Origin: an uncultured Candidatus Poseidoniales archaeon
GTDB lineage: Archaea; Thermoplasmatota; Poseidoniia; Poseidoniales; Poseidoniaceae
Reading direction: 5' to 3'
DNA length: 64,000 nucleotides
NCBI GenBank assembly: GCA_905182185.1
Contig: CAJJAP010000001.1
Span: 11,167 to 75,166 of the forward strand
The first letter of the stretch is position 1; each line of letters starts with the position of its first letter. Shown here in pieces: positions 22,712 to 52,920 of the stretch. The position numbers and the translations under genes are program-made. The notes below the pieces were generated by a model. It saw nothing but the letters and a program-made list of their open reading frames with translations. It searched no databases and was not told the origin of the DNA.

Positions 22712-24791
22712 ATGGACACTGAAAATGTTACATTCGCTGACCTCGGCGTGGACCCAAAGGTCGTACGTGTTTTACAGTCCCAGGGCATCCTTTCTCCCTT
22801 TGAAGTACAACTTGCAGCTATACCAGATGGAATGGCTGGAAGGGACATTTGTTGTCGTGCTCCAACAGGGTCTGGTAAGACTCTTGCATTCGGACTTCCG
22901 CTATTGTCAAAGACGACCGAATCAAAACCATTCTGTCCAACTTCTCTGATTCTAACTCCAACTCGTGAACTTGCAGAACAAATTTACAATGTATTAGAAC
23001 CTCTTGCATGGGAACTCAAATTGTACGTACTTGCAGTTTATGGTGGTGTGTCGTACACCAAGCAATTCAAAGCACTCGACCGTGGTGTCGATGTTTTGGT
23101 AGCGTGCCCAGGTCGATTATTGGATTTGATTGATAGAGGAAATGTATCACTTCAAGATGTCAATTGTGTCGTTCTTGACGAAGCGGACAGAATGGCTGAC
23201 ATGGGATTCATGGAACCAGTTTGTAAGATTCTTAATATGTGTAAAAAGGATAGGCAAACCATCCTTTTCAGTGCAACCTTGGATGAAGAAGTTGCAGACT
23301 TGGTTAGAGATTACCAAACAGATCCTGTAACAATTGAAGTTGGACCAAAGGAAGTTTCAATGGAATCAATGCAACATCTCTTTTGGATGATGCCAGGTGC
23401 AAAGAAAGGGCCAGTGAGTGCTGAATTAATTCGAAAAACTGGTCGCGCTATTGTATTCTGCCGAACTCGTGCAGGTGTTGATAGAGTTGGAGATGAATTG
23501 GAGTACGATGGTGTTTCAGTTGAAACATTACATGGTGGATTAAGCCAACATAACAGAGATAGAGCCATGGAACGATTCCAGCACGGAGAAACAATGGCTC
23601 TAGTGGCGACAGATGTAGCTGCTAGAGGTATCGATGTTGCCGGCGTAAATTGTGTAATTCATTATGACCCACCAGAAAATGGTAAGGCCTACAAGCACCG
23701 AAGTGGAAGAACTGCTCGTGCTGGTACATCTGGAGTTGTAGTCTCTCTCGTTCAAAAACCTCAGAAGAGGTCTTATGTCCGAATTCAACAACAAGTTGGA
23801 ATTAGATGTAATTTCGATCCTCCAGAGTTTTCTGATATTCCTGAATTCGAAGTAGAGTTTATCGCACCAAAGGCAAAATCATATGGACGTCAAGGTTCTA
23901 ATTCTAGAAATGATAACGGTGGAAGGCATAACCGCAGCAATAACGACCGAGGTGGAAACCGAGGTGGCTACAGAGGCGGCGGTGGCGGAAGAGATTCTGG
24001 ACGCGGCGGCGGTGGCTACAGAGGCGGCGGCGGCGGAAGAGATTCTGGACGTGGCGGCGGCGGTGGCTACAGAGGCGGCGGCGGTGGAAGAGATTCTGGA
24101 CGCAGCGGCGGTGGCTGGCTATGGTGGCGGCGTGACGGCGGAAGAGATTCAGGACGCAGCAGCGGTGGCGGTGGCTACAATGGCGGCGGTCGAGACGGCG
24201 GAAGAGATTCTGGACGTAGCGGCGGTGGCGGTGGTACGGTGGCGGCGGCGGTGGCTACAGAGGCGGCGGCGGTGGAAGAGATTCAGGACGCAGCGGCGGC
24301 GGGGCTACAAGGCGGCGGCGGAGGAAGAGATTCGGACGTACAATGGCGGCGGTCGAGACGGTGGAAGAGATTCTGGCAATGGAGGATACCGTGGTGGTGA
24401 CAGAAATTCATACCAAGGTCGTGACAGTGGCAGAGATTCTGGCCGTGGTGGAGACAGAGATTCTGGCCGTGGTGGAGACAGAGGCGGAAACCAAAATGAT
24501 AGATCCAATTCCAATCAAGGTGATAGAGCACCTAAACAGGATAATAGAGAGCCTGCTAAAGCAAAACAGGATAAGTCTAGTTCCAACAAGGAATCAAGCA
24601 GTAGTGGCTATCGTGGAGAAGCAAAAGGTAGAACTTACACTCCAACACATTCTGAAAAGAAGGGATTCTTAGGTGGGAGAAGACCACTCACTCGTGATCA
24701 ATTACGCAACAGACCAGAGCACACACGCGAAGGCGGTCGTGGTGGGAAAGTTGCTAGTAAGCGTAACAAGCATGCACAAAAAGATGATTGA
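22712..24791 (+). CDS. DEAD-box RNA helicase with a long C-terminal GGRDSGR/RGG-like repeat tail; the frame is broken several times inside the repeats
   Basis: Contains APTGSGKT, PTRELA, DEADRM, SAT, ARGID and HRSGRTARAG. The tail is spread over ORFs 22712..24400 and 23883..24791, which share the repeat region. The sense reading resumes as YNGGGRDGGRDSGNGGYRGG... and runs to the stop at 24791. Confidence 0.85.
23940..24490 (+). repeat. G-rich coding tandem repeats (GGRDSGR[GS]GGGGY units)
   Basis: The unit ggaagagattctggacg[cgt]...ggcggtggctac recurs. A 53-nt stretch at 24184-24236 matches the reverse complement of 49541-49593 at all but 2 positions (manual comparison). Confidence 0.85.
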
Positions 24792-24792
24792 A

Positions 24793-25443
24793 TCAATCTC
24801 TTTGTAAGTGGATTCTAACAACTCTTGCTTGTCCCTTGTGTAGCGCTGATTCATCGAGAACAGTGCTTGTAATCGCAGTATGAATAATGTTCATTTGGGG
24901 TGCTTTTTCACCAACTAATTCGCCTAATACTTCATCCAAGTCGAATAATAAATCAAGTGATTTCGGACCACCACTATGCAAAGGCATTTGGCTTGTATGA
25001 TAACCTTCCATAACGAAATGGCCACCACTTTTCAGTGAATGCAACATTCTCGGCATGTGGACTTTTCTTATCTCACTGGGTGTATGAAACCATGAACAAG
25101 CGATTAGATCATACGACTGTTGTGGAAATACTCTCAAAGCTAAATCATCAACTTCATAATCGACAGTAACTGCATGTTCTTGTGCTAATAGGTGGCATTT
25201 TTGTTTGCCGACAACCGATAGGTCAAACACTTCGCTATTCCAACCAATTCTCGCAGCCCAAACTGCATTTCGACCCTCGCCATCAGCAGGGAATAGTGCA
25301 CGATTATTAGGGGGTGGGTCGATTTGAGAAACACGTTCACTCAACCAAATATTTGCTTCTTTGCCATATGCATATTCATCTGAAGAAAAGCGCTCATCCC
25401 ACATTTCTCCACCGCTTTTGATTTTATCGTCAGTCATTTTCAC
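24793..25443 (-). CDS. Class I SAM-dependent methyltransferase, substrate unknown
   Basis: Has a Rossmann-type motif I region (ALFPADGEGRNAVWAA) and an acidic motif II (VFDLS). Its size and layout resemble TehB/type-11 methyltransferases. Confidence 0.55.
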   Translation of the reverse strand: MKMTDDKIKSGGEMWDERFSSDEYAYGKEANIWLSERVSQIDPPPNNRALFPADGEGRNAVWAARIGWNSEVFDLSVVGKQKCHLLAQEHAVTVDYEVDDLALRVFPQQSYDLIACSWFHTPSEIRKVHMPRMLHSLKSGGHFVMEGYHTSQMPLHSGGPKSLDLLFDLDEVLGELVGEKAPQMNIIHTAITSTVLDESALHKGQARVVRIHLQRD

Positions 25444-27614
25444 TCCTCCTCTTGTTCAATTTGCTTGGGTGGTGAAAAGATTCCATGGTCTTCAATAATT
25501 TGACCAGAACCTGGCAGAATACCAAGAATATCATCGGTCATCAATCCTGTATTCTTGTAAATCTGATTAGCAAGTTGTTCTTTTTTAGTTAATCCTGGTG
25601 AAAGAATTGCATACCTTTTACAGATATTTTTGATAGTAGCAGGTGTTGCACCCATCAATAATGGAACTCCATTGATTGCGACAATTCCAATGCCGATTCG
25701 AACATCTAAATCCTTGAACCATGTGCGCTGCCCTCTAACAATAAATGCTCCTTTACCAACGAATTCCCCAGTGTTAGCAGTCTTTGAAACTTGAGCAGGC
25801 TTAACCGAATAAACAGTTCCATGTGCCCCTCCTCCTGCCCATGCACGACTCCAACAAAGTGCCATTGTAGCAGCCTCAAGTAATTTATCATCATCAAGAG
25901 CAGAATCCTCTAATTTATCTGCAACGCGAAAAGCAGGGATGTCATCTGGAATATGTGCAGGTTTTTGTTGGTCAACAATAAATCCTTGAGCTGAACGTAA
26001 ACTGCACGAAGGAGCACCATGTATGTCTGCATGTAAGTACAGGTCATTTACTGACAGGTGTCTTTTGACAACGGAATCATTACCTTTGGCATCCTTGCCT
26101 CCAACTAGTAAATGGCCACCGGAAATCATTGACCAGCGATGTGTTTCAAACCAAAACCTCTTGCTACGTTTAATTCGGTTTAACTTCCCAGTTGCTTCCG
26201 CTTTGGTTTCTTTTTTCTGAGCTGTTTTTAATCTGGTAACAGTTTCTTTGAGTGCATCGACTGCACCCTTATTCTTATTCTTCTGTTTTCTTGCAGATGC
26301 AAAATGTCGTTGAGAGTTTTGATGTACTGTTTCATCAAGTGATAATGTTGCTTGTGGGCCATTTGGATGACCATCTTCATCAGGGAGTATAGTGACAAAA
26401 GTCCTCTCAGCAGCATTCACAGAAACAATCCAAGCAATTTCTTTTATTGCCTTTTTTGTCGCTTTCCAACCTTGAACCTCAACAGCCTCATCAACTTGTG
26501 ATAATAATGATTCAATATGAGTCCAATTTTCTTGAATCATATGGCCAAGAGCCTGTTGTTTGTCTATTTTTTCTGAAAAAGAAATCATAGAACTCTCTTG
26601 TTGAACAAGCCTTCTTTGCAATCTCTCAACATCGGTTGAATGACCTCTTCCCGGAGCAGCAATATCCATTTTTTCAGCCTCTCGCCTTGCTAACGCTGCC
26701 GAGTCGTGAGAACCTCTCCAAGCATCGACAGCAGCCCCAAGAGTGTCAAAACGAACCGATACCCTATCAGCATGAGACGGTAGTAAAATCGGCGTTGCTT
26801 CCTCTGCATGTAACTCTAGGAATCTATCACGGATAACGCCCATAATCTGTTTATCTGCTACAGCCTGTAATTCCTCAACAGGAACTTCATCACTTGGCTT
26901 CAGAATTAAGAACCCTGAATTGCTATTTGATAGGTCGTTTAGCAACTCGTGTAATGCAGAATGAACCTTACCAATATCGGCATCTTCTGCCTCCATGTTT
27001 GGTTGATGACCTGCAAGTTGGCAAATAGCATTGGCATGAGTTCCACCGAGGTTTAATTTGCCTCCAAGGGTTGAAACTAGATCTCTATCCGTGTCCTTAA
27101 ATAATTCAGTTAACCCTTGTTCATCGAGTGAAAATGGATTTATCGCAGCGGGAGGGGGGGTATATTCAAAACCCTTTTTGAGAGTTCTTCCTGCATAAGC
27201 CGCATGAGTAAGGGGCTGAATAATAATTCCTTCTTGATCAACCAAAATGATATTTCCATCTCTAAAAACTTCTACGTAAATGTGTCTCGTACCAAATTTA
27301 GTCTCAAAATCAAATGATAATACACGGTCAAAGCCAAGTTGTCTTACTCCGGTGAAGCGTGAATTTTTGAGGTGCTTTCGCAGTAACATAGCGAATGGTG
27401 GTGGCGTCATTGGCATAGGGCGGTCGCGGTTTGAAGTGTAAATTCGTGAACCTCTAACAAAGACTAAATCGAATTGGTCCATTTCTTTAGGATTGATTCG
27501 AAGGACTATTTGCTCATAATGAGGCATGTACGCCTTCTTGACATATGCATTAGTGCATTTGTTCAATTCGTTGGCCATTGCAAATAGGTCAAAACCGCTC
27601 ATCGCCTCCTTCAT
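25440..27614 (-). CDS. NFACT-family protein (archaeal Rqc2/RqcH/FbpA homologue, ribosome quality control)
   Basis: The N-terminal NFACT-N pattern reads MSGFDLFAMANEL...FTGVRQLGFDRVLSFDF...IYVEVFRDGNIILVD. A central coiled coil follows. The C-terminal NFACT-R/DUF814-like block reads GGKDAKGNDSVVKRHL..LYLHADIHGAPS. Confidence 0.8.
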   Translation of the reverse strand: MKEAMSGFDLFAMANELNKCTNAYVKKAYMPHYEQIVLRINPKEMDQFDLVFVRGSRIYTSNRDRPMPMTPPPFAMLLRKHLKNSRFTGVRQLGFDRVLSFDFETKFGTRHIYVEVFRDGNIILVDQEGIIIQPLTHAAYAGRTLKKGFEYTPPPAAINPFSLDEQGLTELFKDTDRDLVSTLGGKLNLGGTHANAICQLAGHQPNMEAEDADIGKVHSALHELLNDLSNSNSGFLILKPSDEVPVEELQAVADKQIMGVIRDRFLELHAEEATPILLPSHADRVSVRFDTLGAAVDAWRGSHDSAALARREAEKMDIAAPGRGHSTDVERLQRRLVQQESSMISFSEKIDKQQALGHMIQENWTHIESLLSQVDEAVEVQGWKATKKAIKEIAWIVSVNAAERTFVTILPDEDGHPNGPQATLSLDETVHQNSQRHFASARKQKNKNKGAVDALKETVTRLKTAQKKETKAEATGKLNRIKRSKRFWFETHRWSMISGGHLLVGGKDAKGNDSVVKRHLSVNDLYLHADIHGAPSCSLRSAQGFIVDQQKPAHIPDDIPAFRVADKLEDSALDDDKLLEAATMALCWSRAWAGGGAHGTVYSVKPAQVSKTANTGEFVGKGAFIVRGQRTWFKDLDVRIGIGIVAINGVPLLMGATPATIKNICKRYAILSPGLTKKEQLANQIYKNTGLMTDDILGILPGSGQIIEDHGIFSPPKQIEQEEE

Positions 27615-29807: not shown

Positions 29808-29880
29808 TAGCCCCCCTCGGATTTGAACCGAGGTCGGCGGGATCAGAACCCACCATGATGGACCACTACACTAGGGGACT
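29808..29880 (-). tRNA. tRNA-Gln (CTG), no encoded CCA
   Basis: The reverse complement is AGTCCCC-TA-GTGT-AGTGGTCCA-TCAT-G-GTGGG-TTCTGAT-CCCGC-CGAC-CTCGG-TTCAAAT-CCGAG-GGGGGCT-A. The acceptor, anticodon and T stems pair, and the D arm is typical of archaeal Gln/Glu tRNAs. Confidence 0.85.
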
Positions 29881-38720: not shown

Positions 38721-41700
38721 GTGATGATGATGTCAATCAAAACAGAGCAACTGAAGGCCCAAGTTCGCAGCACTTTCCTAGTGCTGATAATGCTACTTTC
38801 AACCACTGCCGCTTTAGCCACAACTTCGAGCGCTTCAATGAGCCGAAGTTATACAACCGGACGGGACCCCCAAGATGTTGCAATCGGAGATTTCAATTGT
38901 GATGGAGCAAATGATATTGCCATGGCTACTGATGGAGCTCACACGATAACTATCCTGTGGAATGATGGAAATGGTGATTTTTCAGAGCGCCAAGACATTT
39001 GGATTTCAAAGAATGTATCACGAGATGCTGAGTGGGATGAATTTTCTAATGTGCAATTCATAGAAGTTGGAGAGTTTACAGGCGACAACGCCCTTGACAT
39101 CGTAATTTTCCAAAGAAATAATCCATTCAAAACAGATGACAATAATGCACCAGCAGGTGAACCAGGTAACGTTACAATCATCGAAAACCAAGGCTGTAAT
39201 AATCACGACTGGGCCATCGGTGCTAGATTCACTCACTTTTGGGCATGGGATTTAGCAGTTGGTGATGCAGACCAAGATGGTGACGATGATGTTTACGTGC
39301 TTGATTTGCTGACCGATATAGACACGCAAAGAGTCGTCACCTATAGAGGACCAATAACCTCCTCAACTCCTGCAATGGTCACTTCACTCGGATCGGCTAA
39401 AGCTAATTCTTACCGTTCTATGGAAGTTGGAGATTGGGGGGAATCACAGACCGGCTTATCCGGCGCATGTACCGATGACGACATATTTCTCCTGAGGTCT
39501 TCAGGTGTTGATTACAGCACTGGCCAAACAACTAATCCTGGTAACGATGATAACGTGTCAATCGTGCAATTCGACTGTTTGACAAACATATATCCGACGA
39601 CTTATTCATATGGCTCAAGTCAAGTTAATACAAATACAATTAACATGGCAACTACATTTTCTAGTGGTTTTGATATCGGTGATATGGACGGCGACTTAGT
39701 GACTGATACAATCGTTTTGAACGATGGTAATGTAGAAAATGTGACCTATGTGACATCATCCGCAGTAGGAACTTGGTCCACGCCATCACTTGCGTATTTC
39801 GGGCCGTATATTTCGTATGCAGTCTCAGTTGCAGATTTGAATGGTGACAATGAACCAGATTTCGTCAACCCTACCGTTGCATATCAACAAAACACTAGCG
39901 ACTCTGCTGGAGGAACAACCTCTAATTTCTGGCTTAACTTCCCAACAACTGTACAAGTTACACTGTCAAATGGTGCCGGAGGCCACGTAAGTCCTCTATC
40001 ATACGAGGCAGGCCGCAGACCTAGCATGGCTGAGGTAGGCCAACTTGCAGGCGCATCAGGTTCAGCTCCAGATATTGTAGTTGGACACACATCTTACGAC
40101 TTTGGAAATTGGATTGACAACTTAGGATGGGAAGGGCAATACGATTCAATCTCGGTTATTGAAATGGATAATCAAGATCTATCTGTCACCGATTTAGAGA
40201 TTTCACCAGTCGACAGGTTCTTTGGAATCGTTGGTGAAGGAACACGCGACCTCAATGTTACGGTCATCAATACTGGAATGGATACTTTGAACGGACAAAC
40301 TGCTACTTTGGATGTCGAATTAAAGATAGTTGATGAAGCCAATTCAACCAATACTACAGTATATGCAATGGATTGGGACACAGCAGAGAATAAAGCAGGC
40401 TGTGGAACTGGATGTGCTTGGACTTATGAAGAGTATATCGACCAATCAACTCGCTGGCACGAAGAAGTGAATCACTCTGAGTTTGAGAGTGGTAGTGAAA
40501 ACTTCGCAGCCAACCAAAACAATCCTACAGATTTCATGTGGGCTGGTATCTATGATACAAATGCAAGTGGCGACACTTGGACCGGATACGGGCGTAACTG
40601 GGACGATGCTATGACGCTAAACGCAGTAGACCTAACAGGGTCTGACCGCGCATTCATGGGAATTGAAGTATTCCAATCCTTATCTTATGGTGCACTTGGA
40701 GGCGCTGATGCAAATGGCTGGATTATTGGCGATGTCTGGGATGACTTAGCGATTATTGAGGTTGGGAGCATCGAAACCGGTTGGGCAACGATCAACTGTC
40801 CACAAGAGGCTTTGATCAACGCAGCCTGTTCTTCAGGTTCATCAATATGGGGTGGTTATGACAATGACCGCTTAACCAAGCAGGGATTAGGAGGAGTTGC
40901 TGAAGGTAGTCTACAATTATGGAGTATACTATAGCGGAACTCACTACGGTTGGAACAATTTCACAGAAGATGGAGTTGGTGCATTTGACCTAAGTAGTTG
41001 GGCTGGAGAAACAGTTGACATTCGATTTAGATTTAGAACTGGATTTGATGGAAGTATTGCTGATAGCAATGAAAGCAGGTGGTCTGGACTTGACGGATAT
41101 GCAGTCGACAATATCACAATTTGGAAACAAACTACTGCATTCTTAGGTAACCCACAAACACAACAAAGTCAAATTTCATTAACAAATCTTGGACCTGGTG
41201 AAGAATATACGACCTCTTTGTCAGTGAATGTTCTCAATGACACTACATACAGAGTTAGTGCGTCATTGTCAAGCAATGCTTGGGATGAGCAATCACTTAA
41301 TGATGAAATCGTTGGATATTTGACTCCATTCAATCTTTACGACCCAGCGGTTGAAGGAATTGATTACTTCAAACCTGGTGGTTTGTATGCAGAAGGAATC
41401 TTCGACATTGGAGTGACGACAAATAATTGGGGTAATACCTTGGTTGATTTTGATGTTGAAGCAAAGGTATTCACCGCAACTCCTTCAGATATTTACTGTG
41501 GAGTTCCTTCAGAGATTTGTAAAGAATCATTCGAAGGCGGTTCGGAAGGATATCGATATATTGAAAGTAATAATCCTCGAGGAGCTGTATACAATGAAGC
41601 AAGTTGTAATGACAAGATTTTCAATAATAACGCATATTGGTTTGGACATCCATGTGAGACCGCTACTAAAGGATACGGAGATGCATGGGCAAATGAAACA

Positions 41701-44700
41701 ATGACATTGCCAGAAGTAGACCTTACCAGTATGTCTGGTGATTTCGTTTCACTTAACTTTGAATATTATGCTGATACATTCTTTGGAATCGATTCTGATG
41801 GTACAAGTATTGTTGATGTCAATGACTATGCAGCAATCACTTTAGATTACACCAATAGCGCTGGAAACTTCAGTGCAGTATTAATGGGACAATGGAACGA
41901 TTATAACGAAGATGGATCTTGTAGAGTTGACGATAACAACGATGGTTTTACCAATTCTTCAGAATCCTTTGACAATGTTGAAATTCTTGGCGTTGGAGAT
42001 TCAGGTTCTACTGATGGTTCAGGTGCTAATTACGCTCTCTTCTTCAATACTGATGATTTAGTTAAGACTGCTAATATTGACTTGACTCACATCTATGTCC
42101 TCAATACATCTGATTCAAACAATCAGAATTGGAATTATGAATGTATCTCTTTAGCAGGTTCTACTGCACAAATCAATTTCGAATTCCAATCCGATGACGA
42201 TGGACGAAATGGTATTAATGATGGCTTCAAGGGTGTTGCATTCAACAATATTTCTCTTCAAGAGTATACCTTCTTGGAAGAAGCATCATACACAATGTCT
42301 CGTACAAATGTAGACGCTGAAGATGTATCCACAGATATTATTGCTGCTCATGAATTCACATCAGGTGTATATATGGTGCAAGTGGAAACAATATTTGACA
42401 ATACAACAGTGGGTCAGAATTGGTTTAATGACGACGAAATATCAGTCGCTAATAACAAGAAGAGAGTTATTTTCAACGTTGAATCAGTTGATGTGACTAT
42501 TGGGAAACCAGAAACATTATCGTGTATTTCAGACCAAGCACTCGAGTGTGTAATGCCAATTGATGGTGCTTTAACCCATTCATGGGATATTGTAGTCACA
42601 AATGGTGTTCTTGGAGGAGATTATATCTTTAACATGAACATTGAAGATATTACGGCAGGTTCTACTGCACACACCACTACTGCTGGCCCACAACAAAGTT
42701 TGTCCGCACACCAGCGTATCACTGTAGGGTTCACTCCATGGAATGGATGGCAAGATGGCCACCAATACAATATCAGTTTCTCTGCAGAATTAGCTAATGG
42801 TAACCCGTCAGGTAATGTCCGCTATTTCATTGCAACCTTTGAAAGTAATATCGATGTAGCAATACTGGGAGATACATCTGCTCGTACTACTGCGATAAAG
42901 CAAGACTTGAATCTGTTGGGTATGTCATATACTCAATACAGCATCAATGACTGGGAGACATATTTCGATGCAGGTTGGTTTACTCATTATGACAAGATTA
43001 TTCTACCGTGGCAAGATACACTTGCAGCCAAGGATATAGAAAATGGTGGACGCGGATACTTCCAAAAGATTGGAAGTACTTCTAATCGCCAAATCCTAGA
43101 AGGATTCATGTCTGCGGGTGGAACTGTTCAAGCTCACCTTGGACCTCAAGGAAGCCAAATTTATGGTACTGACCAGGGGTTATCTGGACGTCTACCATTT
43201 GGTTTGGATATCCAAAGTAGAAACACTCCTGAGAGTAAGATTACATACACAGATATGGATCTAGCAGACCCATACCACCCGTTGATGGAAAATATCAATT
43301 CTAATGCATTCCAAGGGTTTGATGCAGAATCCACTGTTGCAGAAGCAGTGCTCAATACCAAGTCGGTTAGTGCGAATGAAGTGCCAGTTACATGTAATGG
43401 ATACATGGAGGATGGAGGATACTTCCAAAGAGTCATCCGTTCCTCCTCAGATATCCAAGATACAGTTCTTGGAGTTTGTTCTTACTATGATGGTGGACTA
43501 ATCGTTACTACAATGGATATTGCAACTGTCTCTGACCGTGCAGATAGTATGACCTTCCCTCTCTTGGGCAACATGCTGTCATACCAAGTAAGTCCATACC
43601 CTGAAGGATTTGGAACACTCGGTAACGGTTTGGAATTGACTATCAATGGAGATACTCCAAATATCGACCCTTCAACTGGAAAGTATGCTGTAAAGTACAT
43701 GAAGAGTGATGCAACGGTTACATTTGGATTTACAACCAGCACTTCATCAACTTTGTCAACAGATTGGATTGTTGATGGACCAACCTCGTGGGATGGTTCA
43801 ACAATGGCAAGTGGAGTTGGACACACTACGGATATGAGTCCAGTAATGCAATTCTGTAAGAATGATTTGTCAAGTGCAACAGGATGTGCACAAGGTGAAC
43901 AATGGAATGTCAAGTTGATGCTACACGATGACGCAGGTCACTCACGTATCATCGATGTCACCGTTGAAACAAACGATGTCTATGCGGATGAATACAGACC
44001 AACAGCAAATGCTGAGATCGACATGCGTCCTGAATATGTAGACCAAGTTGAATTTACTGGAACCAAAACGGTTTCAAGTACCGAATGGGATATTTACAGG
44101 ATAACTCTTGATGATGATGGTGAAACAACAATCCATTTCGATGCAAGTAATTCAAGCGATCAAGATGCTTTGGAAGGAAACGGAATTGAGACTTATCAAT
44201 GGAAGGTTTTGTTTGATGCACCATATGGTGTTGACGACTTTGCATTAGAAGGTCATACATTTGTTCAAAGCGACGCAAGTGATGGTGAATGGGCATATAA
44301 TTTCAAGAATGAAACAGTTGACTCAACTGGTGCAAATGAAAATACCATCCGCATGGAATTAGTGACTTATGATAAGGCGGGTAAGATTTCAGAGAAATTC
44401 CGTATGTTCTTCGTTATCGTTCCAGCCGGATTCGGCGATGAAGAGCCAGTTGTACAACTCGACTCTCCAAATGCTAATTCTCGCGTTGATACAGACACAA
44501 TTACAATCTCTGGGTCTGTTCTAAGTGGTAGTGAGCAAAATGAAGTATATATCGAAACAGCATTTGTTCTTGCAGACTTCAATGAATCATTCGTACAACA
44601 GTACAACAAGAAGATTCTAGGAACTTGGAACAAGACCACATCTGGACTTGGTAATGGTGAAGCATTTGACTTGACATTATCAATGGATGGAATGTATACA

Positions 44701-45405
44701 AACAAATCTCAAGTAATCCTCATTTACATCAAGATCTATGAAGGAATTGGAGATGACCAACGTTGGATTTCTTACAAGCAAATAGAAATCAACTTACCAG
44801 CCTGTCAAGGAACTGAAGCTGACGTCGCTGCAGAAGCGGCTGGCGGAGAGTGGATTCTAGATGCTGATGGTGAATGCCAATGGGATGGTGCTTGGGCATT
44901 CGAGGATGGTGAATGGAAGGCTCCTTCTGATGGCGGCGACAGTTCTGAAACAAGTGGTGAAATGGATATGGCTACAATAGGAATCATTGCGGCTGTAATC
45001 ATCGCTATCCTGGCTGTAACAATGGTAATAATGCGCAAGGGTAGTTCGGATTCAATGGATGACACTTCCAAGGATTTCCACGCTGCTGCTAGCGGATTTG
45101 CTGCAGCACAGTTAGACCCTGTTGAACAATATGTACAACAATTGGTTGCACAAGGATATCCTGAGGAAACTGCACGTCAGTATGCACAACAATATGCAGC
45201 TCAGGCTGGAATCGGTGAAGGTGCTGCAGCAGCAGCGCCAGTTGCCGCAGCACCAGTTGCCGCTGCACCAGTTGCTGCAACTCAAGTTGACCCAGCAGTT
45301 TACCAGCAATATCTACAGCAATTCATGGGCCAAGGATATGATGAGGCTACTGCAGCGCAATATGCACAGCAGTATGCTTTGCAATATGCACAGCAACAAG
45401 GTTGA
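38721..45405 (+). CDS. Giant surface protein with an N-terminal signal/anchor, FG-GAP/VCBS-like repeats, large beta-rich regions, a TM anchor and a Q/A-rich cytoplasmic tail; one frame break near 40900
   Basis: ORFs 38721..40934 and 40897..45405 overlap by 38 nt, and the second frame opens only at 40891. Contains GDFNCDGANDIAMA, GDADQDGDDDVYV and DLNGDNEPDF. The TM helix is IGIIAAVIIAILAVTMVIM. The tail carries AAPVAAAPVAAAPVAA and two QGY[PD]E[EA]TA.QYAQQYA motifs. Confidence 0.75.
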
Positions 45406-46766: not shown

Positions 46767-46991
46767 ATCTAAGATGTCTCTTCCGCTCATAGCCGGATAG
46801 ACATTTGCGAGAAAATCAATCACTTGGCCAACAGAATATGGCATCAATTGTATGTGTACAGTGTAAGTGGGTCTGAATTACCATTGTACTCCTCCATAAG
46901 TTCTTGAAGGGGTTTCGGATACCCCTTGCGACTTATCCGAAAAATTAATTTAGCGGTATAATACTATTAACCACTATGCAATGCCAGTTAC

Positions 46992-48196: not shown

Positions 48197-49243
48197 TCAC
48201 TCTTCCTCAAACTGTTCTAATTGTTCATCTTCGTATTCTTCATCAATGTAACCCATCTCATCTAGATGAGAATCAAAGTCTGGTAATTGAGGTTTCCAAC
48301 CTTGGGGTAATTCCTTTCCAGAATCAATGATTTTTATCATTCTCTCTTGCCATGCAATTGGTTTTCTTTGCATAATGTATAGGTAAAGAACGGATAATCG
48401 TATATCTTCATCGATTATAGTTAATCCAGTTGAAGCTTCAAAATTCATAGCCCTTAACAAATTATAAGCGGGCTTATTTAACAACCCAGTCCATCGTTTT
48501 GCCAGCCTCATTCCAACTAATACAGTCATAAATATCACTAGTGATGTTAAACAAAATCCACCCCATCCCTCACCAAATATTTTGTCGCTTAATACAACTT
48601 CAAGCAAAAGAAATGGCATGGTAGCCATCATGAAGATAAATGTTTCAGAAACAGGGGGTTTTCTCATTTTACTGGTGATTGCACCCCAGCCGTCATGATT
48701 TTTTTCCCACGGATAAAAATAAGTTCCCGAGGTACCTTCCGCAGCAGCCTTTACCAAGTTCATCAAATAGTATAATTTTCCAGTTTGAGATGTTGCAATC
48801 TCCATATTGTTTTCAACAATTGATTTCAACCTAGTGTCTGCTTCACCATATAATCCCATATCGGTTAGAATCGTTGCTTGTTCTACAATGGGTGTAACTT
48901 CATCTGGGGCATGATGTCTACAGTCTTGCCACCATTGCAATGAATCATCAAGTAATCCAAGATTATCTGAAAGGAGTTGTCCACCTCTAACCCACATTTG
49001 CAGTAGCATTGGGTCTAATTGTATGGCTTTACGACATCCATTGAGAGATTTAGCCGCCTGTGCGAGAGTTGGGTTTTTCGTTTCACCTGCGAGTGCAGAA
49101 TCGGAATATAGTACCCATGCATCAACATGTTCAGGATCTAGTTTTGTAGCAGCTTTTGCTTGATCGAAGGCTAATTCAAAATCGCCTTTATCAAATGCTT
49201 CAACCGCATCTAAATAATGGTGTTCTGCACCCATTCTAATCAC
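48197..49243 (-). CDS. TPR-repeat membrane protein
   Basis: The N-terminal half has TPR-like helices (AVEAFDKGDFELAFDQAKAATKLDPEHVDAW...). Two TM helices and an acidic C-terminus follow. It starts 2 nt after the gar1-fusion stop. Confidence 0.55.
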   Translation of the reverse strand: MIRMGAEHHYLDAVEAFDKGDFELAFDQAKAATKLDPEHVDAWVLYSDSALAGETKNPTLAQAAKSLNGCRKAIQLDPMLLQMWVRGGQLLSDNLGLLDDSLQWWQDCRHHAPDEVTPIVEQATILTDMGLYGEADTRLKSIVENNMEIATSQTGKLYYLMNLVKAAAEGTSGTYFYPWEKNHDGWGAITSKMRKPPVSETFIFMMATMPFLLLEVVLSDKIFGEGWGGFCLTSLVIFMTVLVGMRLAKRWTGLLNKPAYNLLRAMNFEASTGLTIIDEDIRLSVLYLYIMQRKPIAWQERMIKIIDSGKELPQGWKPQLPDFDSHLDEMGYIDEEYEDEQLEQFEEE

Positions 49244-49245
49244 AC

Positions 49246-50912
49246 CTAATCTTGAGTTTTATCGTAATTTCGGGGCCGGATATCACTAGGGGCACGGTTA
49301 TGAGCATGCCCATCTTTCTTTCCTTTAGATCTTCTAAACTCAGACGCTTCTGGCTTTCCTCTTGGAGCTGAATCGTCTCTTCTTCCACGTCCAGAATCTC
49401 TTCCACCGTCTCGACCGCCACCATAGCCACCGCCACCGCCGCTACGTCCGGAATCTCTTCCACCGTCTCGACCGCCACCATAGCCACCGCCACCGCCGCT
49501 GCGTCCGGAATCTCTTCCACCGTCTCGACCGCCACCATAGCCACCGCCACCGCCGCTACGTCCAGAATCTCTTCCACCGTCTCGACCGCCACCATAGCCA
49601 CCGCCACCGCCGCTACGTCCAGAATCTCTTCCGCCGTCTCGACCGCCGCCATCTGTAGCCACCGCCACCGCTGCTACGTCCAGAATCTCTTCCACCGTCT
49701 CGACCGCCCCATAGCCACCCCACCGCCGCTGCGTCCGGAATCTCTTCCGCCGCCGCCACCATAGCCGCCACCGCCGCTACGTCCGGAATCTCTTCCGCCG
49801 CCGCCGCCATAGCCACCACCGCCGCTACGTCCGGAATCTCTTCCACCGCCGCCACCATAGCCGCCACCGCCGCTGCGTCCGGAATCTCTTCCAGCCGCCG
49901 CCAGCCATAGCCGCCACCGCCGCTGACGTCCGGAATCTCTTCCGCCGCCGCCGCCATAGCCGCCACCGCCGCTGCGTCCAGAATCTCTTCCAGCGCCGCC
50001 TGAACGAGCCAGACCACATCGATTGCACTCATCTCTTCTTGCGAAGTTATTGTTATGGCATTTAGGACATTCCCAATCTCCGTCCATGCGGTTTTCATTA
50101 CCACCGCTACGGTTATCGGATCCACTGAATCTATCTCTTCCACTATCTCTGCGGTCTCTGTTTCCACCATCTCTTCCACCGCTTCTGTCACTTCTTTGGC
50201 GAGAAGGGCTAGGTGCTCCGCCTTCCTTTTCAAGACCACATCGGTTACATTCTGAACGGAATGAGAAATTACTGTTTTGACATTTAGGACATTCCCAATC
50301 ATTGCTGTTATCTGGACCATCTCGTTGTCCATTGGAACGATTAGAGTCACGTCCACCGTCACGACTTCCACGACGGTCATCACGACCTCTGTTTTCATCA
50401 CGCCCACCTCTTCGCTCATCCCTACCGCCGTATCTTTCATCGCGACGAGAGCTTGAACGACCTGAACTTGGTCGAGGCGCTTCACAGCGGTTACAGTTTT
50501 GACGGAATGAATAATTATTATTTTGACATTGAGGGCAATCCCAATCTTCACTTGGTTGGTGACTTTTATCCTGCCTTCTTTCGTCACGAGTTCCACGATA
50601 TCCATCACGGTCTCCACTTCTTTCAGTGCGTTGGTCGCGGCGTTGGTCACGCTCATTTTGGCGTTCTACGCGAGGTTTTTTAGATCTCACACCAACTTCC
50701 TTTCCAACTAAGGATTCTAAGTCGAGTTTTCTTTCAATATGTGCAACATGAACTAATGGAGAATTAGTGTTTCCTAATACCGAATCTACCTTGCCAATGT
50801 AATCGCCAGTGGCAGCATCAGTGATTATAGATTCAAGCGCAGGTGACGAACCTGTAAATTTGACGAGTAATCCACCTTCGTGGCTCAACGACTCAATAGT
50901 ACCAGTAAACAT
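49246..50912 (-). CDS. gar1: H/ACA RNP protein Gar1 fused to three RanBP2-type zinc fingers and a long GGRDSGRSGGGGY repeat tail; the frame is broken inside the repeats
   Basis: The Gar1 core is MFTGTIESLSHEGGLLVKF...GDYIGKVDSVLGNTNSPLVHVAHIE...LVGKEV. The three fingers match W-x-C-x2-C-x3-N-x6-C-x2-C: DWDCPQCQNNNYSFRQNCNRC, DWECPKCQNSNFSFRSECNRC and DWECPKCHNNNFARRDECNRC. The repeats are spread over ORFs 49674..50930 and 49246..49695. Confidence 0.8.
49375..50000 (-). repeat. G-rich coding tandem repeats (57-nt/19-aa and ~48-nt/16-aa units)
   Basis: The 57-nt unit gaatctcttccaccgtctcgaccgccaccatagccaccgccaccgccgctacgtccg is repeated about 4-5 times (GRSGGGGGYGGGRDGGRDS). Upstream units encode GRDSGRSGGGGYGGGG. 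Confidence 0.85.
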
Positions 50913-50964
50913 GGTATTCCCTAAACACAATGCGGAAGCCCTCCTCCTTTAAGGGGGTCGGTAT

Positions 50965-52920
50965 TCACAAATATTGTTTTCTTTGCCAAAATGCCATTGC
51001 TAATAATGTGATTATCAGCGTTGAAAGCATAGATAGCGAAGGAAGTCCACCTTCTTCAGAAGGTTCTCCATCAACGATTACGGTATCGCTATCGTCCTCA
51101 GCATAAGGATCGGTAATGAACACAGATAAGGTTCCGATAACTCCGGATTCATCAGTAGCAGAAATGATTACATCATATTCAGTTATTCCTTGGCTCATGC
51201 AAGAAGCGATTGAAACATCGATTTCCCAATTAGTTCCAACTTGGGTGAAATCAGTTGTTGAACCACTGCAAAGTGATAGCATTAGGGTCACTTCTTCGCC
51301 ATCAGGGTCAATTACTATACCTTTCAAAGTAAATTTCAATCCACTATCATCCCATGTAGCATTTTCTTGACTAATTCCAGTAATCAATTCTATAACAGGT
51401 GGAGAACTTGATTTTTCAAGACCAAAGTTTAGCATAAAGGAATATGTCAACATATTAGTCGCATCAGCAGTTCCCATTACCATTACCAGACCTGGTCTTA
51501 ATTTTTTGAGTGATAAACCAGTTGTTAATTCATTTGTTGCAACAGTGATTGTTTTTGCATCAGCCATATTATTCGATTGGTGGGCATGAGCTATGATTGT
51601 CATTTCTCCAACCAATCCAGTTGGTGTGATGGTAAATTCTAATTCCTCACTTTGTTCATTCATCGCAGCGCTTGCCGTAAATAGTTGACCAAATGTCCAA
51701 GTTCTAGATAGTTCTGAAGTTTCCCCATATGGGTCGACGAGGTTACATGTTGCTTGTGAAGAACCAGTGCCAACTGATGTGATGATAAATGCCCCATCCT
51801 CATCCATTTGACTTGACCAGCCATCTTCAACAAAGTTACAATCTAATGTCCAACCATGGTTATCACTTGCCCAATTTTCAGTAATGTCTCCATTCACTAC
51901 TACAACGGTACCATCATCAGATAAAGGGATTATCTTGCCTTCATCAGGTGCACTACTGCTCCAGATTGGTATGTCATTATCTTCAACTTCTTGAGTCGTA
52001 AAGTCAACGTATATTTCACGAATTGCCGGGTAGTTGGAATCAGGATATTCAACGTCAATTGTAACTCTCATTCTCCCGTTTGGAAGGTTTTCTACTACTG
52101 GAATTTCAAGTGCATCATTCTGAATACCATCATCCATTGTTGAGAATTCTAACATTCTCAAACCTTGAGTTTGAGGGAATGTCAATACAAAGGATGCATC
52201 GGTGACATTGGTCACATTTAATGCGAGAGTGAAATTTGATACACCTTTGTTAGGTAATTGGTTAAATTCAGCATTATATGTCTCTTCATCGGCAACGAAC
52301 ATACTGATCTCTAAATCATCAGTTGCTGAAACAGGAATTTCGTAGCAACCATTAGATGCTAACAAATTTTGACAATTTCTTTTTTCTTCATGATCAGATG
52401 GAACTAGATTTACTTCATCAAGTTGAATTCCATCCTGAATGAAACTCCAATTATTCCAATCCACACCAGTGCGATGTGCCACTCCTTCTTTCAACCCAAT
52501 TCTTGTATCCATGTCGGCGATACAATCAGGTCCAATCGCTCTGACAGCATCTCTTTCATCAGTACTTAACCATCCGTTACCGCCGCCTGGTACATCTTGA
52601 GAACCTATTAGCTCATCAAGATTTTCTCTAACAGTCGCTGCATTTGAACCGTTTACCCAAGCGTTTGCATAATAATCTGCGGTAGCCCAATCATCAAGGA
52701 TATTGATGCTAAAACTTGCAAAATCATAATCAAATAAATCTTCAAAAGTCAAACCGCTACAGTTAACTTGTCCTACATCATCTTCTCTTGCTTCAACATT
52801 GGGAACAATGTTCTCTTCAAAACTATTATCTTGAATTTGTGTCGGTGAAAATGTCATCATCAGCAATATCGCGCTGAGAATCAATGAAGAAATTTTCAAC
52901 CTAGTGTTACCATCTGCCAT
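50965..52920 (-). CDS. Extracellular protein with an N-terminal signal/anchor and a C-terminal TM helix, function unknown
   Basis: The signal-like N-terminus is ISSLILSAILLMMTF and the C-terminal helix is LSMLSTLIITLLAMAFW. It lies directly downstream of the ABC-2 pair on the same strand. Confidence 0.5.
   Translation of the reverse strand: MADGNTRLKISSLILSAILLMMTFSPTQIQDNSFEENIVPNVEAREDDVGQVNCSGLTFEDLFDYDFASFSINILDDWATADYYANAWVNGSNAATVRENLDELIGSQDVPGGGNGWLSTDERDAVRAIGPDCIADMDTRIGLKEGVAHRTGVDWNNWSFIQDGIQLDEVNLVPSDHEEKRNCQNLLASNGCYEIPVSATDDLEISMFVADEETYNAEFNQLPNKGVSNFTLALNVTNVTDASFVLTFPQTQGLRMLEFSTMDDGIQNDALEIPVVENLPNGRMRVTIDVEYPDSNYPAIREIYVDFTTQEVEDNDIPIWSSSAPDEGKIIPLSDDGTVVVVNGDITENWASDNHGWTLDCNFVEDGWSSQMDEDGAFIITSVGTGSSQATCNLVDPYGETSELSRTWTFGQLFTASAAMNEQSEELEFTITPTGLVGEMTIIAHAHQSNNMADAKTITVATNELTTGLSLKKLRPGLVMVMGTADATNMLTYSFMLNFGLEKSSSPPVIELITGISQENATWDDSGLKFTLKGIVIDPDGEEVTLMLSLCSGSTTDFTQVGTNWEIDVSIASCMSQGITEYDVIISATDESGVIGTLSVFITDPYAEDDSDTVIVDGEPSEEGGLPSLSMLSTLIITLLAMAFWQRKQYL

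What the first reader, a model, noticed from the sequence alone, without database searches (positions are those of the whole stretch)
49246..50912. Archaeal Gar1 fused to three RanBP2-type zinc fingers and an RGG-like glycine/arginine array (eukaryote-like GAR/FET architecture)
The N-terminal ~75 aa match the Gar1 core of H/ACA pseudouridylation RNPs (G.I.S..HEGGLLVKF...IGKVDSVLGN.NSPLV.V). Archaeal Gar1 proteins are normally just this small core.

Here the core is followed by R/D/E-rich linkers and three fingers. All three fit W-x-C-x2-C-x3-N-x6-C-x2-C. They carry the N[FY].[FR]R..CNRC residues typical of the single-stranded-RNA-binding ZRANB2/FUS-type subclass.

After the fingers come about 200 aa of GRDSGRSGGGGYGGGG and GRSGGGGGYGGGRDGGRDS repeats. 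Glycine/arginine-rich (GAR) domains flank eukaryotic Gar1, and RGG plus a RanBP2 finger is the FET-protein module. Neither is an expected feature of an archaeal H/ACA protein. This may point to extra RNA tethering or condensate-like behaviour of the H/ACA RNP in this lineage.
Basis: partly seen in the sequence, partly recalled or inferred. Interest (0 to 1): 0.8.

Follow-up and report, generated by a model that had tools for sequence, protein, structure and literature searches.

The report
Archaeal Gar1 with RNA fingers and glycine-arginine tail
A marine archaeon (Poseidoniales) encodes the Gar1 subunit of its RNA-guided pseudouridine machine fused to three eukaryote-type RNA-binding zinc fingers and a long glycine/arginine-rich disordered tail, an architecture that is the rule in this archaeal order but that I could not find described in the literature I could search.

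Summary
Window 49246-50912 (- strand) is one gene. It has an N-terminal Gar1 beta-barrel, three RanBP2-type zinc fingers separated by R/D/E-rich linkers, eleven 48/57-nt tandem repeats coding a Gly/Arg/Asp/Ser/Tyr array, and a conserved C-terminal FRxxxGKxxGHAHN motif. The Gar1 assignment fails Pfam's threshold. It is supported by profile-profile comparison, a profile hit to P. furiosus Gar1, and a confident model whose best structural matches are Gar1 chains. The fingers carry the ZRANB2/FUS single-stranded-RNA-binding residues, almost invariant in 208 family fingers. The tail is only loosely 'RGG-like', with a single RGG.

The reading frame is broken by six indel events confined to the repeats. 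Near-identical relatives read through, so these are probably assembly errors. The corrected protein is 553 aa.

The fusion is lineage-wide. At least 209 species-level genomes carry a relative, and the 80 inspected are nearly all labelled Poseidoniales. Some MGIIb members lack fingers.

A DEAD-box helicase 25 kb away carries the same repeat module with the same codon string.

Most likely function: Gar1 of the H/ACA RNP with added RNA-tethering modules. RNA binding, Cbf5 binding and condensation are untested. Verdict: a new variant of a known kind.

The parts
49246..50912 (-). Whole gene for Gar1-(RanBP2 ZnF)x3-G/R-rich tail. It is 553 aa after removal of six indel events. As assembled, the frame breaks at about 49690-49745 and the C-terminus is in another frame.
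   Evidence: P0001 is 100% identical over the first 308 aa and reads through to the same C-terminus.
50679..50912 (-). Gar1 core domain (aa 1-78), a six-stranded beta-barrel.
   Evidence: AF2 pLDDT 89. Foldseek top hits are P. furiosus Gar1 2ey4/2hvy with TM 0.73-0.86. hhalign against Thermococcales Gar1 gives probability 95.4%, E=1.6e-8. The family profile hits 2hvy_B at E=2.3e-6. Pfam Gar1 is sub-threshold in 29/29 members. Translation.
50544..50678 (-). R/D/E/Q-rich linker 1, predicted disordered.
   Evidence: Sequence. pLDDT is below 50 in the full-length model.
50484..50543 (-). RanBP2-type zinc finger 1 (WDCPQCQNNNYSFRQNCNRC).
   Evidence: (best PDB match FUS ZnF 6g99).
50238..50297 (-). 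RanBP2-type zinc finger 2 (WECPKCQNSNFSFRSECNRC).
   Evidence: (matches ZRANB2 F2 2k1p/3g9y).
50016..50075 (-). RanBP2-type zinc finger 3 (WECPKCHNNNFARRDECNRC).
   Evidence: (best match ZNF265/ZRANB2 F1 1n0z, E=2.7e-6; also RBM10).
49402..49988 (-). Tandem repeat array of 5 units of 48 nt and 6 units of 57 nt. It encodes the Gly/Arg/Asp/Ser/Tyr low-complexity tail.
   Evidence: Predicted disordered.
49890..49940 (-). Repeat unit with three single-base insertions. The frame is restored within the unit, giving 'QRRWRLWLAAA' instead of 'SGGGGYGGGGG'.
49630..49745 (-). Two repeat units with -2 and +4 (CAGA) indels. The net +2 frameshift truncates the called ORF at 49674.
   Evidence: Apart from a compensating 1-nt pair at ~46905-46921 and one in-frame 12-nt insertion (~45270), there are no indels outside the repeats relative to the 98.2-98.6% identical contig L001.
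49288..49338 (-). Conserved C-terminal short motif FRRSKGKKDGHAHNRAP. Family consensus is [FY]-R-[KR]-[AS]-[RK]-G-[KN]-x-x-G-H-A-H-N-x-x-P.
   Evidence: G, H, H and N are invariant and A is 69/70 across 70 distinct C-termini.
22712..24791 (+). DEAD-box RNA helicase gene whose C-terminal tail (about 23990-24400) is built from the same repeat module and is likewise frameshifted in this assembly. It is related context, not part of the Gar1 gene.

Best explanation
The gene encodes the Gar1 subunit of the archaeal box H/ACA pseudouridylation RNP in a Poseidoniaceae (Marine Group IIa) archaeon. It carries a lineage-specific C-terminal extension.

The Gar1 beta-barrel (aa 1-78) would dock on the pseudouridine synthase Cbf5, as in Pyrococcus.

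Three RanBP2-type zinc fingers are strung on disordered Arg/Asp-rich linkers. They keep the ZRANB2/FUS residue set that reads single-stranded GGU/GGN RNA. They would give the RNP extra multivalent affinity for single-stranded substrate RNA such as pre-rRNA.

The roughly 200-aa Gly/Arg/Asp/Ser/Tyr repeat tail would add sequence-independent RNA binding or chaperoning, possibly with self-association. This is functionally analogous to the GAR domains of eukaryotic Gar1.

The conserved C-terminal GHAHN motif is a further docking element with an unknown partner.

The frame breaks in the window are most likely assembly or polishing errors inside the repeat array, not biology.

Shown here: domain identities, one-gene architecture, conservation, distribution.
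Inferred: Cbf5 binding, RNA binding by the fingers and tail, and the effect on the RNP.
For: Gar1 identity:
- The AF2 model of the N-domain has pLDDT 89.1.
- Its best PDB structural matches are P. furiosus Gar1 (2ey4_D/C, 2hvy_B; TM 0.73-0.86, rmsd 1.6-2.0), followed by eukaryotic Gar1 and Naf1.
- hhalign of the Poseidoniales profile against the Thermococcales Gar1 profile gives 95.4% probability, E=1.6e-8 over 77 collinear columns.
- hmmsearch of that profile against the PDB puts Pfu Gar1 first at E=2.3e-6, followed by yeast and human GAR1 at non-significant E-values (0.02, 0.22).
- Pfam Gar1 is the only family matched by all 29/29 N-domains.
- JGI names these proteins 'rRNA processing protein Gar1'.
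- Finger-less MGIIb members (P0183, P0214; 155-166 aa, core plus basic tail) look like ordinary archaeal Gar1 and belong to the same family.

One gene:
- 50 of 80 species-level loci have an uninterrupted ORF from the Gar1 core through the fingers to GHAHN.
- Synteny is shared with L001 and L002.

Fingers:
- Pfam E=1.5e-20.
- The closest solved sequences are ZNF265/ZRANB2, FUS and RBM10 RNA-binding fingers.
- In 208 distinct family fingers, D-W is present in 207, the stacking aromatic in 208, the second Arg in 208, and position 19 is F/W/R in 195. These are the determinants of GGU/GGN binding described in PMC6384913.

Disorder:
- In the full-length model the core and fingers have pLDDT about 90 and the linkers and tail are below 50.
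- Composition is conserved across 90 family members, with medians of 24% G, 28% R, 18% D+E and 1% K.

Frameshifts as artefacts:
- All indels against the 98.2-98.6% identical L001 lie in the repeats, except a compensating 1-nt pair at ~46905-46921 and one in-frame 12-nt insertion (~45270).
- P0001 to P0003 read through.
- The helicase repeat array in the same window is also frameshifted, while its orthologues are intact.
- 25 of 80 assemblies break inside this gene before the C-terminal motif, and 2 more run to the contig end after it.
Against: - The Pfam Gar1 score is below the gathering threshold (13.8-18.4 bits against 29.3). NCBIfam Gar1 equivalogs score only 20 bits against a cut-off of 139.
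- A narrower family profile did not reach Gar1 in the PDB.
- I could not check that Poseidoniales genomes lack a second, canonical Gar1, nor that they encode Cbf5, Nop10 and H/ACA guide RNAs. None of these is in this window.
- No direct evidence exists for RNA binding, Cbf5 binding or expression.
- Real frameshift mutations in this strain cannot be excluded without reads.
Confidence: 0.7

Rival explanations
1. The protein uses a Gar1-fold barrel but is not the H/ACA subunit. It would be a lineage-specific general RNA-binding or RNA-chaperone protein (hnRNP-like), possibly a paralogue, with the true Gar1 encoded elsewhere.
For: The Gar1 models of Pfam and NCBIfam are not met. The family is sharply delimited, with only 120 representatives at E<=1e-3 among 1.84 billion and no canonical Gar1 among them. 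The invariant residues (SHEGG, H55, H58, R61) differ from the Thermococcales invariants. No H/ACA partner gene lies nearby.
Against: Gar1 is the top hit by three independent methods. The hallmark P-x-L and G-x-V-x-x-V-x-G-(P) positions align collinearly. Finger-less members of the same family look like ordinary archaeal Gar1. No candidate for another Gar1 was seen, although whole genomes were not searched.
Confidence: 0.15
2. The copy in this genome is a true pseudogene or a truncated variant. The frameshifts are real, so the cell makes a 412-aa protein that lacks the C-terminal motif.
For: The window sequence as given carries a net +2 shift. 2 of 80 other assemblies (L023, L043) also show frame breaks in their arrays.
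Against: There are six separate indel events within about 300 nt of repeats, and essentially none in 9 kb of flanks, relative to a 98.2-98.6% identical contig. The same kind of damage is present in the helicase array of the same assembly, whereas 100%-identical-core orthologues are intact. The C-terminal motif is invariant in the family, and 50 of 53 loci where the ORF ends at a stop codon are intact.
Confidence: 0.07
3. The zinc fingers mediate protein-protein contacts, as Npl4-type (ubiquitin) or Nup153-type (Ran) fingers do, rather than RNA binding. The extension would be an assembly or localisation scaffold.
For: The RanBP2 finger fold is used for protein binding in several eukaryotic proteins. 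Nup153 is a weak hit (E=0.0063).
Against: The four best sequence matches are RNA-binding fingers. The RNA-contact set (D4, aromatic 17, R20, and F/W/R at 19) is close to invariant in 208 fingers (PMC6384913). From my own knowledge, the T-F dipeptide of ubiquitin-binding NZFs and the L-V of Ran-binding fingers are absent from these sequences.
Confidence: 0.08

Closest known systems
Archaeal Gar1 (for example P. furiosus PF1791; PDB 2EY4, 2HVY, 3HAY)
   Same: Same fold and collinear core motifs. N-terminal position of the core, followed by a basic tail.
   Different: Pfu and other Thermococcales Gar1 proteins are 90-128 aa with a short Lys-rich tail. This one is 553 aa, with three zinc fingers, an Arg/Gly/Asp-rich disordered region of about 360 aa containing almost no Lys, and a conserved C-terminal motif. 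Core sequence identity is only about 23%, and Pfam and NCBIfam thresholds are not reached.
Eukaryotic Gar1/GAR1 with flanking GAR (glycine-arginine-rich) domains
   Same: A Gar1 core attached to a Gly/Arg-rich low-complexity region that is expected to bind RNA. A review treats GAR domains as absent from archaeal Gar1 (PMC1865073), so this is a functional parallel.
   Different: The extension is C-terminal only. The repeats are GRDSGRSGGGGYGGG rather than RGGF/RGG boxes, with 1 RGG in this protein and a family median of 3. It is rich in Asp and Ser. Eukaryotic Gar1 has no zinc fingers. The origin is almost certainly independent, because the tails differ even among Poseidoniales.
ZRANB2 (ZNF265), FUS/EWS/TAF15 and RBM5/RBM10 RanBP2-type single-stranded-RNA-binding zinc fingers
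   Same: Same consensus and the same RNA-contact residues. Finger 3 (NFARR) resembles ZRANB2. Fingers 1 and 2 (N[YF]SFR) resemble FUS (NFSWR) (PMC6384913). Fingers flanked by Gly/Arg-rich disorder recall FET proteins.
   Different: The host protein is an H/ACA subunit in an archaeon. Pfam finds no RRM in the ORF, and the family has no SYGQ-type or RS domain. RNA specificity is untested.
DEAD-box helicases with Gly/Arg-rich C-terminal tails
   Same: The window's own DEAD-box helicase (22712-24791) carries the same GGGRDSGRSGGGGY repeat with the same codon string. Its Poseidoniaceae orthologues all have G/R/Y-rich tails.
   Different: Different catalytic domain. The helicase has no zinc fingers and no GHAHN motif.

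Membership tests
Gar1/Naf1 family (PF04410) | Score at or above the curated Pfam or NCBIfam threshold | tested here: not met
   Pfam gives 13.8 bits for the full ORF and 18.4 for the domain alone, against 29.3. The best family member reaches E=2e-5. NCBIfam NF009631 gives 20.2 bits against 139.
Gar1/Naf1 family (PF04410) | Six-stranded beta-barrel of the Gar1 type | tested here: met
   AF2 pLDDT is 89. The three best Foldseek matches are Pfu Gar1 chains (TM 0.73-0.86). Ranks 4-16 are eukaryotic Gar1 or Naf1.
Gar1/Naf1 family (PF04410) | Significant profile-level sequence homology to bona fide Gar1 | tested here: met
   hhalign gives 95.4% probability and E=1.6e-8 against the Thermococcales Gar1 profile. 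hmmsearch of the order-wide profile against the PDB puts 2hvy_B first at E=2.3e-6. The narrower profile A1 did not reach it.
Gar1/Naf1 family (PF04410) | Binds Cbf5 and is the Gar1 of the H/ACA RNP (sole orthologue in the genome) | not testable with these tools
   Whole Poseidoniales genomes could not be scanned, and no complex prediction was available. No Cbf5, Nop10 or H/ACA RNA lies in the window.
RanBP2-type zinc finger (PF00641) | W-x-C-x2-4-C-x3-N-x6-C-x2-C consensus and Pfam threshold | tested here: met
   Three exact matches. Pfam gives 72.5 bits against 27, E=1.5e-20, in 3 stretches. Each finger is modelled with pLDDT about 90.
RNA-binding subclass of RanBP2 fingers (ZRANB2/FUS type) | D4, aromatic at position 17, R20, and R or an aromatic at position 19 (PMC6384913) | tested here: met
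   All three fingers carry D-W, Y/F, F/F/R and R. In 208 family fingers these occur in 207, 208, 195 (F/W/R) and 208 (for the criteria).
RNA-binding subclass of RanBP2 fingers (ZRANB2/FUS type) | Demonstrated binding of single-stranded GGU/GGN RNA | not testable with these tools
   Requires biochemistry.
Eukaryotic-type GAR/RGG domain | Clustered RGG/RG boxes, usually with interspersed Phe or Tyr | tested here: inconclusive
   The disordered region has 44 RG/GR dipeptides and is 40% Gly and 20% Arg, but has only 1 RGG. Arg is followed by Asp or Ser. Other family members have 0-19 RGG.
Eukaryotic-type GAR/RGG domain | Arginine methylation by a PRMT | not tested
   No proteomic data. No PRMT-like gene was seen in the window.
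FET (FUS/EWS/TAF15) protein family | SYGQ-rich N-terminal domain plus RRM plus RanBP2 finger plus RGG boxes | tested here: not met
   Pfam finds no RRM in the ORF, and there is no SYGQ-type domain. Only the finger-plus-Gly/Arg module resembles FET. This is an analogy, not membership.

The most novel reading that the evidence does not exclude
Poseidoniales have independently built a nucleolus-like toolkit. A eukaryote-type single-stranded-RNA zinc finger, possibly acquired from eukaryotic plankton, is attached to an rRNA-modifying factor (Gar1). A shared, concertedly evolving Gly/Arg/Tyr low-complexity module is attached to both Gar1 and a DEAD-box helicase. The two proteins would then co-partition with pre-rRNA into a common condensate or RNP hub in a cell without a nucleus.
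Probability: 0.15. Interest if true: 0.85.

Novelty: new variant of a known kind. Interest (0 to 1): 0.55.

Why it matters
GAR domains on Gar1 and fibrillarin are usually presented as eukaryotic additions to an otherwise archaeal-type RNP (PMC1865073). Here an abundant, uncultured order of marine archaea has attached to the same subunit a Gly/Arg-rich disordered tail and up to five ZRANB2/FUS-type RNA fingers.

This gives a natural, independent replicate of the idea that a modification RNP benefits from extra non-specific and semi-specific RNA tethers. It also provides a compact prokaryotic system for testing what such tails do for substrate loading or turnover and for condensate formation.

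The shared repeat module between Gar1 and a DEAD-box helicase hints at exchange of low-complexity cassettes between RNA-handling genes.

There is also a practical consequence. The repeats break or corrupt assemblies: about one third of species-representative contigs end inside this gene. Automated annotation therefore calls most copies 'hypothetical', 'partial' or 'zinc finger protein', so Gar1 may be scored as missing in these MAGs.

Tried and rejected
- The Poseidoniaceae-only N-domain profile (A1) against the PDB found no Gar1 hit at E<=10. Success required adding the MGIIb sequences (A3).
- The HMM search of 1.84 billion representatives with A1 stayed inside the family, with 120 hits and no bridge to canonical Gar1.
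- A homologue search with P. furiosus Gar1 returned only Thermococcales. It could not show whether Poseidoniales have a second Gar1.
- The search for related loci with A3 failed because no block was conserved enough. It was rerun with A1.
- Six literature searches found no paper that describes this fusion. The searches were Gar1 + RanBP2 + archaea; Poseidoniales + Gar1; RanBP2-type finger + archaea; Marine Group II + RanBP; Cbf5/Nop10/Gar1 + Thermoplasmat*; and archaea + RGG + DEAD-box.
- The Rfam scan of the window found only two tRNAs and no H/ACA RNA.
- Pfam annotation of the other ORFs found no Cbf5, Nop10, L7Ae or PRMT.
- Rejected: assembly chimera or two separate genes, because 50 species-level loci have intact ORFs.
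- Rejected: coding significance of the overlapping ORFs in other frames of the repeats, on either strand. Examples are 49362-49658 (+) and 49613-50656 (-). They are by-products of the repeat.
- Rejected: TTG 50930 as the start codon, because family N-termini begin MF.G at the ATG at 50912.
Full report
**What is at the locus**

On the - strand, an ATG at 50912 opens a reading frame that encodes three things in order. First comes an ~80-aa N-terminal domain. Then come three C4 zinc fingers separated by Arg/Asp/Glu-rich linkers. Last comes a long Gly-rich repeat region.

The mechanical ORF (49674-50930) stops inside the repeats. The repeat continues in another frame (49246-49695) and ends with ...FRRSKGKKDGHAHNRAPSDIRPRNYDKTQD* at 49246.

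Tandem Repeats Finder reports one array at 49387-50000 with periods of 48 and 57 nt and about 11 copies. The finger pattern W-x-C-x2-C-x3-N-x6-C-x2-C occurs three times in the six-frame translation of the whole window, all in this gene, and never in 50 shuffles.

The family's N-termini all begin MF.G, so the ATG at 50912 is the real start, not the upstream TTG.

**The frame breaks**

Splitting the array at the recurring AGAGATTC anchor gives five 48-nt units (RDSGRSGGGGYGGGGG) followed by six 57-nt units (RDSGRSGGGGGYGGGRDGG). Three units deviate:
- Unit 49890-49940 carries three separate 1-nt insertions.
- Unit 49691-49745 carries two 1-nt deletions.
- Unit 49630-49690 carries a 4-nt insertion (CAGA).

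The net shift is +2. Removing these events gives a 553-aa protein.

Four observations point to assembly or polishing errors rather than biology:
- Contig L001 is 98.2-98.6% identical and shares the same gene order. Its only indels against the window outside the repeats are a compensating 1-nt pair at ~46905-46921 and one in-frame 12-nt insertion (~45270).
- The L001 protein (P0001) is 100% identical over the first 308 residues and reads straight through to the same C-terminus. So do P0002, P0003 and others.
- The second array of this repeat type in the window, in a helicase gene, is frameshifted in the same way, whereas its 96-100% identical orthologues are intact.
- Among 80 species-representative genomes, 50 have an uninterrupted ORF from the N-domain to the C-terminal motif. 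25 contigs end inside the gene before the C-terminal motif, and 2 more run to the contig end after it. Two loci have frame breaks within their own repeats (L023, L043), and one has scaffold gaps (L044).

Real mutations in this strain cannot be excluded without reads. I put that possibility at about 7%.

**Is the N-terminal domain Gar1?**

Curated models say 'not quite':
- Pfam Gar1 scores 13.8 bits on the ORF and 18.4 on the isolated domain, against a cut-off of 29.3.
- NCBIfam Gar1 equivalogs score 20 bits against 139, although the match covers 4-94 of 95 profile positions.
- Gar1 is nevertheless the only Pfam family hit by all 29 of 29 diverse N-domains.

A Poseidoniaceae-only profile did not reach any Gar1 chain in the PDB. 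An exhaustive HMM search of 1.84 billion representatives found just 120 proteins, all of this family. That search did reveal a more divergent tier. Those whose clusters carry a taxon label are Thalassarchaeaceae (MGIIb), other Poseidoniales or unclassified Thermoplasmatota.

Adding that tier gave profile A3, which produced clear results:
- A3 hits P. furiosus Gar1 (2hvy_B) as the top PDB sequence at E=2.3e-6, with yeast and human GAR1 next at non-significant E-values (0.02, 0.22).
- hhalign of A3 against a Thermococcales Gar1 alignment gives 95.4% probability and E=1.6e-8 over 77 collinear columns. The P-x-L and G-x-V-x-x-V-x-G-P motifs align.

Independently, AlphaFold2 models the domain confidently (pLDDT 89.1). 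Foldseek ranks Pfu Gar1 chains first (TM 0.73-0.86, rmsd 1.6-2.0 Å). They are followed by human, insect and yeast Gar1 and by Naf1.

I conclude that it is a Gar1 domain. Whether it is the only Gar1 of the organism, and whether it binds Cbf5, could not be tested.

**The fingers**

Pfam Zn_ribbon_RanBP scores E=1.5e-20 in three stretches. The nearest solved sequences are the RNA-binding fingers of ZNF265/ZRANB2 (1n0z, 2k1p/3g9y), FUS (6g99) and RBM10 (2mxv). Nup153 is a distant fifth.

According to PMC6384913, the RNA-binding subclass has four marks:
- D4.
- A stacking aromatic residue at position 17.
- R19 and R20.
- R19 replaced by Trp in FUS/EWS without loss of GGU/GGN specificity.

The three fingers here read DW...N[YF]SFR, DW...NFSFR and DW...NFARR. 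In 208 distinct fingers from the family, the Asp is present in 207, the aromatic in 208, the second Arg in 208, and position 19 is F/W/R in 195. That degree of conservation argues that the RNA-binding face is under selection.

**The disordered parts**

After correction, the non-domain part of the protein is about 360 aa and is 40% Gly, 20% Arg and 14% Asp+Glu. It has 44 RG/GR dipeptides but only one RGG, and the arginines sit in GRD and GRS contexts. 'RGG-like' is therefore only loosely apt.

Across 90 family members the sequences of the linkers and tails differ completely. Examples are GGRPPRRDD, RGNFDRGSRDGG and GGDSRGGSSYGGGGQ. The composition is nevertheless conserved, with medians of 24% G, 28% R, 18% D+E and 1% K.

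A full-length AF2 model of P0001 with a family alignment shows beads on a string. The core and each finger have pLDDT about 90, and everything else is below 50.

About 22 residues from the C-terminus there is a short motif, [FY]-R-[KR]-[AS]-[RK]-G-[KN]-x-x-G-H-A-H-N-x-x-P. Its G, H, H and N are invariant and the Ala is 69/70 in 70 distinct C-termini. A sister subclade has KGHHRKL[RK]DPPPL instead. The function of this motif is unknown.

**Distribution**

The architecture is not peculiar to this genome.
- 364 clustered proteins match at E<=1e-3. Wherever the listed top 120 carry a taxon label, that label is Poseidoniales or 'Euryarchaeota' MAGs, with one 'Woesearchaeota' exception.
- All of the top 120 carry the N-domain, and 119 of them carry 1-5 fingers.
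- 209 GTDB species representatives encode a relative. Of the 80 listed, nearly all are labelled Poseidoniales or with generic archaeal labels, including the original MG-II genome CM001443.1 and a long-read MAG with an intact ORF.
- In MGIIb, some members have no finger and just a basic tail (P0183, P0214). Others have one or two fingers, or a variant finger ending CNRxxC.

The window's protein has the longest disordered region in the set examined. The gene is followed immediately by a conserved TPR/transmembrane-protein gene in all loci inspected.

**A second gene with the same tail**

Pfam annotation of the window turned up a DEAD-box helicase at 22712 (+). Its C-terminal extension reads ...GGYRGGGGGRDSGRGGGGYRGGGGGRDSGRSGGG....

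The two arrays share 75-85% nucleotide identity over 280-520 nt. They use the same codon string for GRDSGR, namely GGA-AGA-GAT-TCY-GGA-CGY. This holds in 12 of 12 Gar1 units and 6 of 7 helicase units, even though Arg and Gly codon use in the window is mixed.

Intact helicase orthologues of 643-709 aa carry repeat variants such as YSGGGGRDSGRS and YRGGRDGGRDSGR. The same variants recur in Gar1 tails of close relatives (P0003, P0005).

I infer a common origin or gene conversion between the two tails. The likely direction is helicase to Gar1, because the helicase orthologues inspected across Poseidoniaceae (70-100% core identity) mostly have G/R/Y-rich tails, whereas more distant Gar1 tails are different. 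Two similar arrays in one genome would also explain the polishing errors.

**Mechanism**

Established knowledge from PMC1865073:
- Archaeal Gar1 binds Cbf5 next to the beta7/beta10 'thumb'.
- It does not touch the guide RNA.
- It is needed for full activity, probably through substrate loading and release.
- Eukaryotic Gar1 additionally carries GAR domains that are thought to contact RNA.

The most likely reading is that Poseidoniales Gar1 keeps the core role and has gained RNA tethers. These are multivalent GGU/GGN-type single-stranded-RNA fingers on flexible mixed-charge linkers, plus a Gly/Arg/Tyr tail for non-specific RNA binding or chaperoning and possibly self-association. These additions would raise the local concentration of the RNP on pre-rRNA.

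The domain identities, the one-gene architecture and their conservation are shown here. Every functional step is inferred.

**Comparison and novelty**

The protein works like a Gar1 and passes the fold and profile tests for the family, while failing the curated score thresholds. Its fingers are members of PF00641 of the RNA-binding type. It is not a FET protein, and its tail is not a canonical GAR/RGG box.

Automated pipelines already label some copies 'rRNA processing protein Gar1/predicted nucleic-acid-binding Zn-ribbon protein' or 'zinc finger protein'. Six full-text literature searches found no description of the fusion.

I rate it a new variant of a known kind. It is moderately surprising to an H/ACA or RNP-evolution specialist, and it is experimentally tractable.

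Noticed in passing
window 22712-24791 (+): A DEAD-box RNA helicase (Pfam DEAD + Helicase_C) has a C-terminal tail built from the same GGGRDSGRSGGGGY repeat as the Gar1 tail. It uses the same codon string (GGA AGA GAT TCY GGA CGY). It is also broken by frameshifts in this assembly at about 24150-24330. Orthologues of 643-709 aa are intact.
   Followed up: yes
window 49288-49338 (-): A short C-terminal motif, FRRSKGKKDGHAHNRAP, lies about 22 aa from the end of the protein. In 70 distinct family C-termini its G, H, H and N are invariant and the Ala is 69/70. A sister subclade has KGHHRKL[RK]DPPPL instead. Its function is unknown. It is modelled with only intermediate confidence (pLDDT 52-61).
   Followed up: partly
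loci L003-L082 (genome contigs): 25 of 80 species-representative contigs end inside this gene before the C-terminal motif, and 2 more run to the contig end after it. Two loci (L023, L043) have frame breaks in their repeat arrays, and L044 has runs of N. The gene is a systematic assembly and annotation trouble spot, so Gar1 may be scored as missing or 'partial hypothetical' in Poseidoniales MAGs.
   Followed up: partly
window 48197-49243 (-); also L001, L002, L023, L043, L047, L034: The gene directly downstream, which starts within a few bases of the Gar1 stop codon, encodes a ~345-aa protein that starts MGAEHHYLDAVEA... Its sequence shows hydrophobic, apparently membrane-spanning C-terminal segments, and it has only a weak sub-threshold Pfam match (T7SS_EccA1_N). 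The adjacency is conserved in the Poseidoniaceae loci inspected, so the two genes may be co-transcribed. Its function is unknown.
   Followed up: no
proteins P0191, P0196, P0197, P0200, P0211 (MGIIb / Thalassarchaeaceae Gar1 relatives): Some MGIIb Gar1 proteins carry a variant finger, GDW[IM]CPKC.NHNYA....CNR..C..., with a different spacing of the last Cys pair. JGI annotates these as 'Gar1/predicted nucleic-acid-binding Zn-ribbon protein'. Others in the same family have no finger at all.
   Followed up: partly
L080 (NZEQ01000076.1) and P0099: One locus that carries this Poseidoniales-type gene is deposited as 'Verrucomicrobiales bacterium', and one protein as 'Candidatus Woesearchaeota archaeon'. 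These are probably binning or labelling errors in the source MAGs.
   Followed up: no
window 5479-11169 (+), 38721-40934 (+), 40897-45405 (+), 50965-52920 (-): There are several very large ORFs. Two have FG-GAP repeats (1896 aa and 737 aa). The 1502-aa and 651-aa ORFs have no Pfam match. The 651-aa ORF lies just upstream of Gar1 and is syntenic in L001 and L002.
   Followed up: no
window 20380-20452 (-), 29808-29880 (-), 20526-21353 (-), 25440-27614 (-): Two tRNA genes are present. So are other RNA- or translation-related genes: an RNase PH-domain (exosome-type) protein and an NFACT-family protein. No H/ACA guide RNA and no Cbf5, Nop10 or L7Ae gene was found in the window.
   Followed up: partly
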